Positions 14,940-18,635 of a stretch of 24,255 nt of DNA are shown in pieces (the first letter of the stretch is position 1; each line of letters begins with the position of its first letter). Source of the stretch: a virus. The notes under the pieces were generated by a model. That model was not told the origin of the DNA and ran no database searches. It saw only the letters and a list, made by a program, of their open reading frames with translations. Made by a program: the position numbers and the translations under genes. The DNA is taken from the UHGV virus genome UHGV-0262927; one strand, given 5' to 3'.

Positions 14940-17900
14940 TCAGCTAATCGTGATGCCTGCAGTGGCTTTCTTCATCACAACAACCAGCAAATCGCTGATA
15001 CTTGCTGTGGGATACCAGCCATTTACCCACCATGCTGATACAGAAAACTCCAGCGTCATGTCGCCGCGACCAGCAGGCATATCAATAACACCACTGTAAA
15101 CCAGCGTATTATCCATCGCGGTACGGTTATAAATTTCAGCACCGTTTTTCTTCACTATCAGGCGGCATGACGAATAAGTATCGCTGTTCTCCCGCTCATG
15201 TCTGGCACCGCTGAAAGCCACCGCCGGAATAACAATCTGCCGGTTAAACGGCTGATCGTCATAAACCCTGACGGTAATGGTTCCTGATGGCCAACGCTTC
15301 GGTGCACGGGAGTCACGGGGGAAAGCCTTACCCACTGTTTTAACGAGATCGCCTTCAATCTGGTTTGCAGACAGTTTCCCTCTGATGACACAGTTCTCGT
15401 TAATGGTGACATTATTGAGCGTGCCGGTATTCGCCGTGATGGCTCCACTGATATCCGCATTGCGGGCTGTCAGCCTGCCATCCGGCGTCAGGGAAAACGT
15501 CGGAGGATTGCCGGATGACGTGATGCTCACCGCAAACAGTCGCTTCAGGAACACGTCGTTCATGAACAGCTGATTCCCCTGCGCCACAAACAGCGGCGTG
15601 GTGTTGCCGTTCTCCGGGGTAATCATCGCAATGCGATCGGCCTGCAGCAGAATGTTACTCAGGGTCTGACCATCAACATCCTCAATCCCCGCACCAATCC
15701 CGGCCACATAGGGAATACCGTTTTTTGTTTTCTGCACCTTCAGCATATACATGGCATTCAGCTCATTGCGCGTGTCTGACTGAACCCGCTGGATTTGCTG
15801 TATGGTCACGGCCTGGTCACCCAGCTTTTTATCCGTGGTCGAGGTAATTTCACTCCCTTTTTTATCCACGTACTGGCGGACCTGTGCTATCTGTCGGGCG
15901 TTTTCTGACTGCCCCTGGCTGACAGTCTGTGAGATTTCACTGCTCACCCGGTCCACTTTCTGGCTCACCTGCGCGATGGCCAGTGTCTGATCCTCATTCT
16001 TTTTCGCAACCAGCTGCGTGAGGCTGTTTTCCGCCTTCCCGATTTTCCGGGTCACTTCTGCGATATCCGTGTCCATCCGCTGACGGATATCTTCTTCCAG
16101 TTGCGTGACCTCCGTACGCAGCGCTGAAGCATCAATGCGCTCTTTCAGTGCCTGGCCCAGAAGCGTCTCATCTATCAGCCCCCGGAAAATTTCCAGATAC
16201 CCTTCACCATCATTGCTGGGCTGCCCGCTGGCTTCCACAAAAGCAGATTTTCCCACCAGGTTGACGCTTCGCACGTAAAACCAGAAATCCGTCCCCGGCT
16301 TAATCCGGCTCCCCTGGACAGTCCACTGACTGCCGGTCCCCAGATAACGGGCAGATTTTTCCACCTGTGCTGTGTTCGTGATGCGTTTTTCTGAGAACCA
16401 GAATTCAAACTGTACCGTCGGGTCATACACCGCAAGACGCGGGACCGCCGTTATCTGAAAATACCCCGGCGTCAGCTCAATGGTGGCGGGTTTTGCAGGT
16501 GCGTTAATCCGGAACGATACCGACGCCGGATCGCCCTGCTGTCCCCGGGCATTTACCGCCCGGACCGTCAGCGTGTAACGCCCCAGCGGCAGGCCGCTGA
16601 AACGGTGCTCCGTGTCTGCGGTGATGGCGGTGGTCACCAGTCTGGCATCCGTTCCCTTACCACTGGTCAGGCGCAGACTGAAGCGCACGCCCTTCACCAC
16701 CTTCGGCGTGTCCCAGCGGGCCAGCACCTGGTATTCCCCGCTGTCTGCGGTGACTTCTGCGGTCAGATGCTGCACTGCTGGCGGCGTGACACCATTCACC
16801 GTGCCGCTCTGGTCGCCGTCAAAGTGCGCCCCGTTATCCACGATGGCCTCTTTTGCCGGTACATGCTGCACGGCGGTGATGGCATACGTACCATCGTCAT
16901 TCTCACGGATACTCACACAGCGGAACAGGCGCTGGCGCAGCGTCGGCAGCTTCAGCCCCCACACGCTGTATTCAGCAACACCGTCAGGAACACGGCTCAC
17001 TTTCACCTTCACGCCGTCGGTGACGGACTGAACCTCCACGCTGATCGGATTGCCACTTCCGTCAACCAGGCTTATCAGCGTGGTACCGGAGGATGGCAGC
17101 GTGATTTCACGGTCGAGCGTCAGCGTCCGGGTCTGGCTGTTCACCGCCAGCACGCGCCCGCCGGTGCTGATACCGGCATAGTCATCATCGCAGATTTCAA
17201 TGACATCGCCCGGTACATGGCGAAGCCCTTCAGCACCCACGCTGAAGTCCACGGTCTGCGTTTCCAGCAGCTCTGTTTTAATCAGCCACAGCCCGGCGCG
17301 GTGTGCCTGCCCCCGGCTGGTACAGCCAAAGGCGTCCATCTTCGTGACATTACGACCGTAACGGGCAATGGCCCGCGTGTCCTCCACAAGCTCTGTCGCC
17401 GTCTCCCAGCCGTTATCCGGATCAATCCAGTTCACCTCAACGGCATTATGACGGTCCTTCAGGGCGCTGAAGCTGTAGCGGAACGGCGCGCCATCATCCG
17501 GCATCACCACATTACTGCGGTTATAGGTCCACACCTTATCTGATGGTCGGTCCTGCACGAACGTCAGCGTCTGCCCGTTCCATACCGGCATACAGCGCAT
17601 CGCCGAGCAGAAATCACTGAGCACATCCCACGCCTTACGCTGTGTGGTCAGGTACGCATTACAGGTGATGCGCGGCTCCGTGCCGCCAAAGCCGTCCGGC
17701 ACTGACTGGTCGCAGTACTGGCCGATGACATACAGCGCCCATTTGTCCACATCCGCCGCACCAAGACGTTTCCCCATGCCGTAGCGTGGATGGGTCAGCA
17801 TATCCCACAGACACCAGGCCATGTTATTGCTGTATGCTGGCTTAAACGTTCCGTCCCAGATACCGCTGTATTGCCGCGTCTGCGGGTTATAGTTCGACGG

Positions 17901-18635
17901 CACCTGCAGAATACGCCCGCGCAGATGATAATTACGGCTCACCTGCTGGCTGCCGAACTGCTCCGAATCCACCTGTACGCCGACCAGTGCCGTGTTCGGG
18001 TAGCACTGTTTCACATCGATGATTTCGGTGTATGACGACCAGAGCGTTTTGTTCTGCAGCTGGTCTGTGGTGCTGTCCGGCGTCATCCTGCGCATCCGGA
18101 TATTGAACGGACGCGGCGGCAGGTCACCCACCACCACCGATGCCAGATACTGTGAGGTGGTTTTGCCTTTAATGGTGATGTCTTTTTCCGTCACCCAGCC
18201 ACCGTTACGCTGTATCTGAACCAGCAGGCGGACTTCCGACGGATTCCGGTCCCCCTTTGAGGTGGTTTCCACCAGTGCCTGCACACCGAAGGTAAAGCGC
18301 AGACGGTCGATGTTTGCAGACGTGATGGTCCGGGTAATCGGCGTGTCGTACTTCACTTCCGTACCCAGCACCGTCTCGGAGCCGGAGGATTCAAATCCCT
18401 CCGGCGGTGTCTGCTCCTGCTCACCTGCCCGGAAAACCACCGTGACACCGGAGATATTGGTATTCCCCTCACTGTCCAGCACTGGCGTACTGTTCAGCAG
18501 CACACTTTTTAATCCGTCCACCGGACCTTCAATCGGCCCTTCACTGATGGCGTCTATCACGCTCAGCATCTGGGATGATTTCAGGTTGTCCTTCGCTTCG
18601 CGCGGGGTATGCCCCTTACTGCTGCCTTTACCCAT
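14940..18635 (-). CDS. J: Tail tip / host specificity protein J (1231 aa)
   Basis: N-terminus [22 protein letters not shown] and much of the first two-thirds match lambda J as I recall it; C-terminal third diverges. Confidence 0.9.

What the first reader, a model, noticed from the sequence alone, without database searches (positions are those of the whole stretch)
14940..18635. J protein longer than lambda J with a divergent C-terminal third
The first two-thirds read like lambda J as I recall it, but the protein is 1231 aa (lambda J is about 1132 aa from memory). The C-terminal region contains a heptad-like charged stretch (…[34 protein letters not shown]…) before the receptor-binding end. 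This is the usual site of host-range variation and suggests a receptor other than LamB.
Basis: partly seen in the sequence, partly recalled or inferred. Interest (0 to 1): 0.35.

Follow-up and report, generated by a model that had tools for sequence, protein, structure and literature searches.

The report
Lambda-type J protein with lengthened shaft
This is the ordinary tail-tip (host-recognition) protein J of a lambda-like E. coli prophage. Its 100 extra residues are a repeat-built extension of the helical shaft that holds the receptor-binding domain, a form already present in about one in eight complete E. coli genomes.

Summary
The ORF is real: minus strand, 14940-18635, 1231 aa against 1132 for lambda J. 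It passes NCBI's lambda_TipJ model, has the six Pfam J domains in lambda order, and lies in the lambda gene order H-M-L-K-I-J-lom-stf.

Residues 1-656 are 98% identical to lambda J. After that the gene is a recombination mosaic.

The extra length is not in the receptor-binding end. It is one block of about 100 aa (836-939) inside the alpha-helical shaft (AHS), between the second FNIII domain and the beta-prism fibre. The shaft consists of 29-residue repeats with a hydrophobic period of 3.63. It contains no proline and is predicted as one helix of about 147 residues.

E. coli J proteins come in several shaft lengths (anchor distances 80, 108, 181, 192, 217, 250, 279). These combine freely with different receptor-binding domains.

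The receptor-binding domain (RBD) is a normal-sized Ig_GpJ_C domain, 42% identical to lambda. It is 65% identical to phi21 (native receptor LamB) and 63% to 'A8' (solved with OmpC). The receptor therefore cannot be read from sequence.

Phages PhiR49_2 and PhiR40_1 carry the same insert, as do 725 of 5426 complete E. coli genomes. Known object, low interest.

The parts
14940..18635 (-). Gene J: tail-tip / central tail fibre protein, 1231 aa plus stop codon
   Evidence: ORF list and translation. NCBIfam NF049904 lambda_TipJ scores 2312 bits against a cut-off of 1950. Six Pfam J domains in lambda order. 97% nt identity to J of phage PhiR49_2 and 98.4% to same-length gpJ genes in E. coli genomes.
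16809..18635 (-). Hub part of J (aa 1-609), including the FNIII-A and Phage-tail_3 domains
   Evidence: 98% aa identity to lambda J and 91-99% nt identity. PF24801 and PF13550 hits. All nine Cys residues sit at lambda positions.
16497..16808 (-). FNIII-1 / Ig_J domain (aa 610-713). Contains a small separate mosaic patch at aa 651-700 (window 16536-16685).
   Evidence: PF24421, E 5e-43. 81% aa identity to lambda. The patch is 67-76% nt identical to every reference, including PhiR49_2.
16185..16493 (-). FNIII-2 / Ig_J_second domain (aa 715-817)
   Evidence: PF24489, E 8e-40. 68% aa identity to lambda.
15741..16208 (-). Alpha-helical shaft (AHS), aa about 810-965. About 150 residues here against 53 in lambda (809-861).
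   Evidence: Flanks are homologous to the lambda AHS; lambda AHS limits come from PMC11101478. Hydrophobic period is 3.625-3.65, reached by 0/1000 shuffles, with no Pro in aa 826-965. The seam phase stays within 135-175 degrees (a 40-degree span) over aa 836-962. AF2 single-sequence model: one helix aa 825-971, mean pLDDT 87.
15819..16130 (-). The roughly 100-aa block absent from lambda J (aa 836-939). It consists of diverged 29-residue repeats; its last unit is homologous to the single unit of phi21 J.
   Evidence: Global and multiple alignments. The 29-aa offset scores 47 against shuffle 23.9 +/- 4.5, 0/500. tblastn in the phage collection finds it only in PhiR49_2 and PhiR40_1. Found in 725/5426 E. 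coli genomes and in 93 IMG/VR stretches. No DNA-level tandem repeat, so the duplication is old.
15336..15740 (-). Central straight fibre (beta-prism), aa about 966-1100. Includes the counterpart of the lambda HepS-trigger peptide (aa 1002-1033, window 15537-15632, F1024).
   Evidence: PF09327, E 2e-24. 76% aa identity to lambda over aa 1001-1072. Trigger peptide is 26/32 identical with the Phe kept (PMC13043305).
14943..15335 (-). Receptor-binding domain (Ig_GpJ_C), aa 1101-1231
   Evidence: PF12421 scores 130 bits against 247 for lambda. Identity: PhiR49_2 99%, 2G7b and 640R1 92%, phi21 65%, A8 (PDB 9wca) 63%, 434 44%, lambda 42%. 100% identical to PhiR40_1 by tblastn. PDB phmmer best hit is 9wca, E 2e-117.
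18696..19367 (-). Gene I (tail assembly protein), upstream neighbour. K, L, M and H follow at 19265-23599.
   Evidence: Pfam Lambda_tail_I, NLPC_P60/JAB, Phage_tail_L, Phage_min_tail, TMP_2 and Tape_meas_lam_C.
14273..14872 (-). lom homologue (Ail/Lom outer-membrane protein), downstream neighbour
   Evidence: PF06316, E 5e-127. Same position as lom in lambda.
12142..14214 (-). Side tail fibre gene (stf-like, 690 aa)
   Evidence: PF08400 prophage tail fibre N-terminal domain, E 7e-67. The equivalent gene in PhiR49_2 is annotated as side tail fibre.

Best explanation
The ORF encodes protein J of a lambda-like E. coli prophage. J is the trimeric tail-tip hub that closes the tail tube and extends the central tail fibre.

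Shown here: the N-terminal hub is essentially lambda's. From about aa 650 the gene is a recombination mosaic. The 100 extra residues are a single expansion of the alpha-helical shaft (AHS), which links the FNIII domains to the beta-prism fibre and the receptor-binding domain. The expansion is built from diverged 29-residue repeats (8 helical turns each) that keep one continuous hydrophobic seam.

Inferred: the shaft is a three-stranded coiled coil of about 150 residues instead of 53. That would make it roughly 22 nm rather than 8 nm, and the central fibre about 15 nm longer than lambda's. The domain at the tip is a normal Ig_GpJ_C receptor-binding domain of a common non-lambda sequence class. 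It most probably docks on a trimeric outer-membrane porin (LamB or OmpC type).

Inferred by analogy with lambda: receptor binding makes the shaft unfold or flip, the fibre bends aside, the FNIII domains are released and the tube opens. A longer shaft would give a longer reach, for example through O-antigen or capsule, before the same collapse. Shaft length and receptor-binding domain are separate, freely recombining modules.
For: Identity as J:
- NF049904 scores 2312 bits against a cut-off of 1950.
- Six Pfam J domains in lambda order.
- Gene order H-M-L-K-I-J-lom-stf.
- 98% aa identity over aa 1-656.

Insert located in the AHS:
- Alignments combined with the lambda AHS limits 809-861 (PMC11101478).

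Helical repeat nature:
- 29-aa repeat, 0/500 shuffles.
- Period 3.625-3.65, 0/1000 shuffles, no Pro.
- Constant seam phase over about 125 residues.
- AF2 predicts one helix aa 825-971, pLDDT 87.

Length classes:
- Anchor distances of 80, 108, 181, 192, 217, 250 and 279 are seen.
- Differences from the window form (11, 36, 69, 98, 73) equal 3.03, 9.93, 19.03, 27.03 and 20.14 turns at 3.625 residues per turn.

Module independence.

The protein is functional:
- PhiR40_1 has the identical insert and a 100% identical RBD.
- It is a plaque-forming phage used in plaquing assays (PMC13190303).

Structural precedents:
- The F2-pyocin J homologue has a long AHS that is a three-stranded coiled coil (PMC13455828).
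- Lambda's fibre collapses on binding, with the collar-to-membrane distance falling from 40 to 15 nm (PMC12617516).

Receptor bracket.
Against: - No trimer model could be made.
- The AF2 run with an alignment of the whole C-terminal part was poor (mean pLDDT 44). It showed a helix break at aa 905-908, so a kink or a fold-back cannot be excluded.
- The 15-nm figure assumes a straight, continuous coiled coil.
- Nothing here measures reach, adsorption or receptor use.
- The longer-reach benefit is an inference with no correlative test, such as against host O-antigen or capsule type.
- The shaft's length polymorphism could be selectively neutral.
Confidence: 0.85

Rival explanations
1. The divergent, longer C-terminal third is a host-range module as a whole, and it retargets the phage to a receptor other than LamB.
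For: The RBD is only 42% identical to lambda's and clusters apart from it. Relative to phi21 and A8 it has two loop indels. The relative A8 is solved with OmpC, and 434 J uses OmpC (PMC11101478).
Against: The extra length lies wholly outside the RBD. Phi21's RBD is the closest characterised relative (65%) and is itself only 48% identical to lambda's, yet it uses LamB natively. The long shaft also occurs with lambda-type RBDs.
Confidence: 0.4
2. The shaft length differences are neutral by-products of unequal recombination or slippage among 29-residue (and 7- or 11-residue) repeats. Any whole number of helical turns is tolerated, and infection is unaffected.
For: Many length classes coexist and recombine freely with RBD classes. 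The differences are whole numbers of turns, which is what structural tolerance alone would select. Some variants carry near-identical, hence recent, unit duplications (P0002, P0122).
Against: The window's repeats are old and diverged: there is no DNA-level repeat. The long form has been kept at 98-100% identity in hundreds of genomes, which suggests maintenance. In lambda the AHS is the element that transmits the receptor signal, so tripling its length is unlikely to be without effect.
Confidence: 0.3
3. The long shaft is a docking platform for side fibres or another accessory protein, as in F2-type pyocin. There, three side-fibre trimers bind a glycine kink of the long AHS.
For: There is a structural precedent (PMC13455828). 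The window shaft has Gly at 866, 906, 927 and 940. The low-confidence AF2 model breaks the helix at 905-908. An stf-like gene lies downstream.
Against: The Stf here has the lambda-type N-terminal domain PF08400. Phi21 has a Stf of nearly the same size with a medium shaft, so no shaft-specific partner gene is evident. The confident AF2 model shows no kink.
Confidence: 0.1
4. The gene is a decaying prophage remnant, and the insert is junk within a non-functional J.
For: The exact protein sequence is not in the 15-billion-protein collection.
Against: The 1231-codon ORF is intact within an intact tail operon. The insert keeps a perfect helical seam. Plaque-forming phages carry the identical insert and RBD.
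Confidence: 0.02

Closest known systems
Bacteriophage lambda gpJ (NP_040600; structures 8IYK, 8XCK, 8XCJ)
   Same: Same family by the NCBIfam model. Same six Pfam domains in the same order and the same gene neighbourhood. 98% identity over aa 1-656. Same size and fold family of receptor-binding domain.
   Different: The alpha-helical shaft is about 150 residues instead of 53. The FNIII-2, shaft and upper-fibre parts are 36-68% identical. The RBD is 42% identical and belongs to another sequence class.
J of Escherichia phages PhiR49_2 and PhiR40_1 (PV340570, PV340560; Brenes & Laub collection)
   Same: Same long shaft, with the insert 100% identical in protein. RBD 99-100% identical. The gene is 96-97% identical over its full length, and lom and stf lie downstream in the same way.
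   Different: The N-terminal part is 91-99% nt identical. A patch at aa 651-700 is only 76% nt identical. The exact window protein is not in the public protein collection.
Phage phi21 J (OL657228) and the 'A8 gpJ713' construct (PDB 9wca/9wcb)
   Same: These are the closest RBDs with known partners, at 65% and 63% identity. Phi21's shaft contains one copy of the same repeat unit that is multiplied in the window protein.
   Different: Phi21's shaft is 73 residues shorter. The RBDs differ from the window's by two loop indels. Their receptors differ from each other: LamB natively for phi21 and OmpC in the 9wcb complex. They therefore do not fix the window's receptor.
PyoF10, the J homologue of the Pseudomonas F2-type pyocin
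   Same: [quoted passage not shown]
   Different: No close sequence relationship was tested here. The pyocin shaft carries an insertion domain and docks side fibres, and the protein lacks a canonical RBD.

Membership tests
Lambda-type tip attachment protein J (NCBIfam NF049904 lambda_TipJ) | Whole-protein score above the curated cut-off | tested here: met
   2312 bits against a cut-off of 1950. The match is split into two stretches by the insert.
Lambda-type tip attachment protein J | Domain order FNIII-A / Phage-tail_3 hub / Ig_J / Ig_J_second / Phage_Tail_Tip / Ig_GpJ_C | tested here: met
   All six Pfam families are above their cut-offs, in the same order as in lambda J scanned alongside.
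Lambda-type tip attachment protein J | Position in the tail operon: H-M-L-K-I-J, followed by lom and stf | tested here: met
   ORF map and Pfam hits of the neighbours, compared with the lambda annotation.
Lambda-type tip attachment protein J | Homotrimer that closes the tail tube and forms the central fibre | not testable with these tools
   Only monomer predictions are available. Inferred from 98% identity of the hub and from solved lambda structures.
Alpha-helical shaft as a three-stranded coiled coil (as in lambda and F2 pyocin) | Continuous amphipathic helix with a single hydrophobic seam | tested here: met
   Period 3.625-3.65, 0/1000 shuffles. Phase constant over aa 836-962. AF2 helix aa 825-971, pLDDT 87. 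The oligomeric state itself was not tested.
Lambda-class (LamB-binding) receptor-binding domain | Close sequence similarity to lambda J 1001-1132 | tested here: not met
   42% identity. tblastn places lambda-type RBDs in a separate identity band. This does not exclude LamB as the receptor.
phi21 / A8 class of receptor-binding domain | Close sequence similarity and the same loop lengths | tested here: inconclusive
   63-65% identity, against 82% between phi21 and A8. There are two loop indels.
Any receptor assignment (LamB, OmpC, OmpF, other) | Loss of plating or adsorption on a receptor knock-out, or a solved complex | not testable with these tools
   No experimental data were found for this RBD class. 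The Brenes & Laub 2025 paper is not held, and the SNIPE paper gives only ManYZ dependence.

The most novel reading that the evidence does not exclude
The alpha-helical shaft of lambda-type J proteins is a length-tunable module. It is built from phase-preserving 29-, 11- and 7-residue units and recombines independently of the receptor-binding domain. Its length sets how far the receptor-binding tip stands off from the tube mouth. Prophages would then use long-shaft forms such as this one to reach porins beneath long O-antigen or capsule, or to dock an accessory fibre as in F-type pyocins. As far as my two literature searches that touched on it show, this length polymorphism in E. coli lambdoid J proteins has not been described.
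Probability: 0.3. Interest if true: 0.45.

Novelty: already known. Interest (0 to 1): 0.2.

Why it matters
It matters little as a discovery. The protein is a catalogued J variant carried by published, infectious phages and by 13% of complete E. coli genomes.

Its modest value is as a correction and a lead.
- Extra length in a J protein should not be read as a changed receptor, because length (shaft) and specificity (RBD) are separate modules.
- 40-50% RBD identity does not predict a receptor switch: phi21 and lambda both use LamB at 48% identity.
- In lambda, the shaft is the element that relays receptor binding to tail opening. Natural forms with roughly 1.5x, 3x and 4x shaft lengths would be ready-made material for testing how that signal travels and whether fibre length helps against O-antigen shielding.
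- The shaft could serve as a design variable for engineered lambda-type phages and tailocins.

Tried and rejected
- Two scans of species-representative genomes (genome contigs) found no relative of the insert, once with the protein and once with an alignment. This says only that it is absent from the one genome kept per species, within the limits of the pattern method.
- Tandem Repeats Finder found no DNA-level repeat in 15600-16400, so recent slippage in this allele is rejected.
- The AF2 model of aa 713-1231 with an 18-sequence alignment was poor (mean pLDDT 44). It was used only as a caveat, and no fold search was run on it.
- Literature: 'PhiR49' appears in no held paper. The source paper of the PhiR phages (Brenes & Laub 2025) is not held.
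- I first assumed that phi21 uses OmpC natively. The paper shows LamB is native and OmpC is acquired by one mutation, which weakened the non-LamB reading.
- The exact-sequence look-up of the protein found nothing.
- PHROGs hits of the insert alone are marginal, E about 3e-5 to families of unknown function. They add nothing.
- The pseudogene reading was rejected (see rivals).
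Full report
**Observation.** The ORF list shows an ATG-started ORF of 1231 aa at 14940-18635 on the minus strand. Its translation begins [20 protein letters not shown], as lambda J does, and contains the quoted peptide at aa 846-879. Lambda J taken from NC_001416 is 1132 aa. The coordinates, the length and the length difference are therefore all correct.

**Identity.**
- The protein passes NCBI's curated model for lambda-type J: NF049904 lambda_TipJ scores 2312 bits against a cut-off of 1950.
- It has the same six Pfam domains in the same order as lambda J scanned in the same call: FNIII-A_GpJ, Phage-tail_3, Ig_J, Ig_J_second, Phage_Tail_Tip and Ig_GpJ_C.
- On the same strand it is preceded by homologues of H (853 aa, as in lambda), M, L, K and I. 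It is followed by a Lom homologue and an stf-like side-fibre gene (lambda map).
- The gene is 97.1% identical over its full length to J of Escherichia phage PhiR49_2 and 96.2% to PhiR40_1.
- It is 98.4% identical to same-length genes annotated 'gpJ: phage attachment tail tip protein J' in complete E. coli genomes.
- The exact protein sequence is not in the 15-billion-protein collection, so this is a new allele of a catalogued form.

**Where it differs from lambda.** Identity in a global alignment:

| Residues | Identity to lambda J |
|---|---|
| 1-609 | 98% |
| 610-713 (FNIII-1) | 81% |
| 714-817 (FNIII-2) | 68% |
| 818-835 | 39% |
| 836-939 | about 100 residues with no lambda counterpart |
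| 940-1000 | 36% |
| 1001-1072 | 76% |
| 1073-1100 | 61% |
| 1101-1231 (receptor-binding domain) | 41% |

At the DNA level, identity to lambda is 91-99% up to about nt 1950 and then drops abruptly to 55-85%. PhiR49_2 is about 100% identical from aa 701 onward but only 76% in aa 651-700. The RBD region is 88-91% identical to phages 2G7b and 640R1. The gene is thus a typical lambdoid recombination mosaic with breakpoints near domain borders.

**What the extra 100 residues are.**
- On LamB binding, the lambda AHS flips by about 180 degrees and partly converts to beta-strands. This releases the FNIII domains and opens the tail tip (PMC11101478; the name 'Alpha Helical Shaft' is also used in PMC13043305).
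- The insert lies exactly between lambda positions 836 and 840, inside the AHS.
- The region has no proline between aa 826 and 965. Its hydrophobic periodicity peaks at 3.625-3.65 residues, which is 29/8 (0 of 1000 shuffles reach it).
- It contains a 29-residue internal repeat. The offset-29 score is 47 against a shuffle maximum of 23.9 +/- 4.5 (0/500). Secondary offsets fall at 58, 11, 40, 51 and 69, which are sums of 29 and 11.
- Written in rows of 29 from aa 827, five units line up.
- The phase of the hydrophobic moment stays within 135-175 degrees (a 40-degree span) from aa 836 to 962. That is a single uninterrupted seam over about 35 turns.
- AlphaFold2 on aa 801-975 alone gives one helix from 825 to 971 with mean pLDDT 87.
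- The run on aa 713-1231 with a shallow alignment was poor (mean pLDDT 44). It also gave helix throughout, with a break at 905-908.
- Tandem Repeats Finder sees nothing at the DNA level, so the duplications in this allele are old.
The pattern is heptads with a regular extra step every 29 residues, which gives a nearly straight bundle.

**A length-variable module.**
- I measured the distance between two conserved anchors, GKSAFVE and YVAGIG. It is 80 in lambda, 2G7b and 434-type J, 108 in phi21 and 640R1, and 181 in the window and PhiR49_2. Other E. coli proteins give 192, 217, 250 and 279.
- Phi21 has one copy of the unit that is multiplied in the window protein.
- P0002 adds a heptad (QLEENIG) plus a nearly exact 29-residue unit. 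P0122 repeats further units.
- The differences from the window form (11, 36, 69, 98, and 73 to phi21) correspond to 3.03, 9.93, 19.03, 27.03 and 20.14 turns at 3.625 residues per turn. Only whole numbers of turns are found, as expected if the seam must stay continuous.

**Shaft class and RBD class are uncoupled.**
- 2G7b has a short shaft with the window-type RBD, and 640R1 has the phi21-type shaft with the window-type RBD.
- Among protein clusters, the 181-class shaft occurs with phi21-type RBDs (58 clusters) and window-type RBDs (9 clusters).
- Among 80 IMG/VR loci holding the insert, it occurs with window-type (54), phi21-type (14) and lambda-type (2) RBDs.

**How common it is.**

| Collection | Result for the insert |
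|---|---|
| Isolated phage genomes | Only 2 of 50,697 (PhiR49_2, PhiR40_1) |
| Complete E. coli genomes | 725 of 5426, always inside a gene annotated as J |
| IMG/VR | 93 stretches, mostly prophages of sequenced isolates |
| 1.84 billion cluster representatives | Only a handful of clusters cover the insert part |
| Species-representative genomes | None found in two scans |

For comparison, the phi21-type shaft DNA is found in 3566 complete E. coli genomes and the lambda-type in 2636. The form appears confined to E. coli-type prophages. There it is a minority form but a frequent one.

**It is functional.** PhiR40_1 has an insert and an RBD that are 100% identical in protein to the window's. It is a plaque-forming temperate phage used in efficiency-of-plating assays, named PhiR40.1 in PMC13190303.

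**The receptor question.**
- The RBD is the same Pfam family and the same size as lambda's (131 against 132 aa).
- Pairwise identities are: PhiR49_2 99%, 2G7b and 640R1 92%, phi21 65%, A8 63%, 434 44%, lambda 42%.
- The same class (88% identity or more) occurs in 57 phage records, including PPompW prophages, several Stx2a-converting phages and JLK-2012.
- Phi21 uses LamB natively, gains OmpC with a single J mutation and gains OmpF with more (PMC11336670). Its RBD is only 48% identical to lambda's. A similar degree of divergence from lambda is therefore compatible with LamB use.
- The A8 construct is 82% identical to phi21 in the RBD. It is deposited with 'Outer membrane porin C' in PDB 9wcb. 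LamB entries do not include 9wc*.
- 434-type J uses OmpC (PMC11101478).
- The window RBD differs from phi21 and A8 by two loop indels.
- The best available statement is that the partner is probably a trimeric porin. LamB, OmpC or another cannot be decided from sequence. I found no experiment on this RBD class.

**Mechanism.**

Shown:
- J family membership.
- The anatomy described above.
- The repeat-built helical expansion.
- The independence of the modules.
- That phages with this J are viable.

Inferred from solved homologues:
- The shaft is a three-stranded coiled coil. [quoted passage not shown]
- At 0.15 nm per residue, about 150 residues give roughly 22 nm, against 8 nm in lambda.
- In situ, lambda's fibre holds the collar 40 nm from the membrane before the irreversible step. 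It then bends aside, which brings the collar to 15 nm (PMC12617516).
- A longer shaft would increase the initial stand-off and reach, while the same collapse brings the tube mouth to the membrane.

Whether this helps against O-antigen or capsule shielding, serves to dock an accessory fibre as in the pyocin, or is neutral has not been tested.

**Novelty and score.** The object is a known, annotated J variant present in published phages and in many genomes, so I rate it 'already known' and give it low interest. The one aspect I could not find described is the phase-preserving length polymorphism of the shaft in E. coli lambdoid J proteins and its independence from the RBD. The four held papers that mention the J-protein AHS do not address it. 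This is a modest lead, not a surprise.

**Other things seen.**
- A Septu defence pair (PtuA/PtuB) lies at 2070-4004 in the variable island beyond the tail-fibre genes. E. coli DE17 carries SMODS and SLATT genes at the corresponding place.
- A DUF6387 gene lies at 9896-10789.
- The lambda peptide that triggers the HepS abortive-infection nuclease (902-933, F924) is 26/32 identical here, with the Phe conserved at 1024.

Noticed in passing
window 2070-4004 (minus strand): A two-gene Septu anti-phage system: PtuA (421 aa, 2739-4004; PADLOC PDLC00268, E 9e-147; Pfam AAA_21/AAA_15) and PtuB (221 aa, 2070-2735; PDLC00331, E 1e-85). It sits in the variable island beyond the prophage tail-fibre genes.
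   Followed up: partly
window about 5000-11400, compared with L008 (E. coli DE17) 5600-9800: The island between the tail-fibre genes and the prophage end is a swap site. The closest complete genome (DE17) carries SMODS nucleotidyltransferase and SLATT genes there. The window has different cargo, and both keep a DUF6387 gene (window 9896-10789).
   Followed up: no
window 16536-16685 (J aa 651-700, FNIII-1): A small separate mosaic patch. It is 67-76% nt identical to every reference J, including PhiR49_2, which is about 100% identical from aa 701 on. This patch is why the exact protein is not in the public collection.
   Followed up: partly
window 15537-15632 (J aa 1002-1033): This is the counterpart of the lambda J peptide (902-933) that activates the prophage-encoded HepS anticodon nuclease. 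It is 26/32 identical and keeps the trigger Phe (F1024). Unlike the Gifsy phages, which carry Ile, this phage would be predicted to be sensed by HepS (PMC13043305).
   Followed up: partly
window 12142-14214 and 11818-12145 (minus strand): An stf-like side-fibre gene (690 aa, PF08400 N-terminal domain) is followed by small ORFs. In PhiR49_2, phi21 and DE17 the corresponding small ORFs are annotated as hypothetical or putative membrane proteins, not as a lambda-type tail fibre assembly protein.
   Followed up: no
proteins P0002, P0046, P0122 (E. coli; not in the window): Other E. coli J alleles have still longer shafts, with anchor distances of 217, 250 and 279. These were created by near-exact duplications of 7-, 29- and 58-residue units, so repeat expansion in this shaft is ongoing.
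   Followed up: partly
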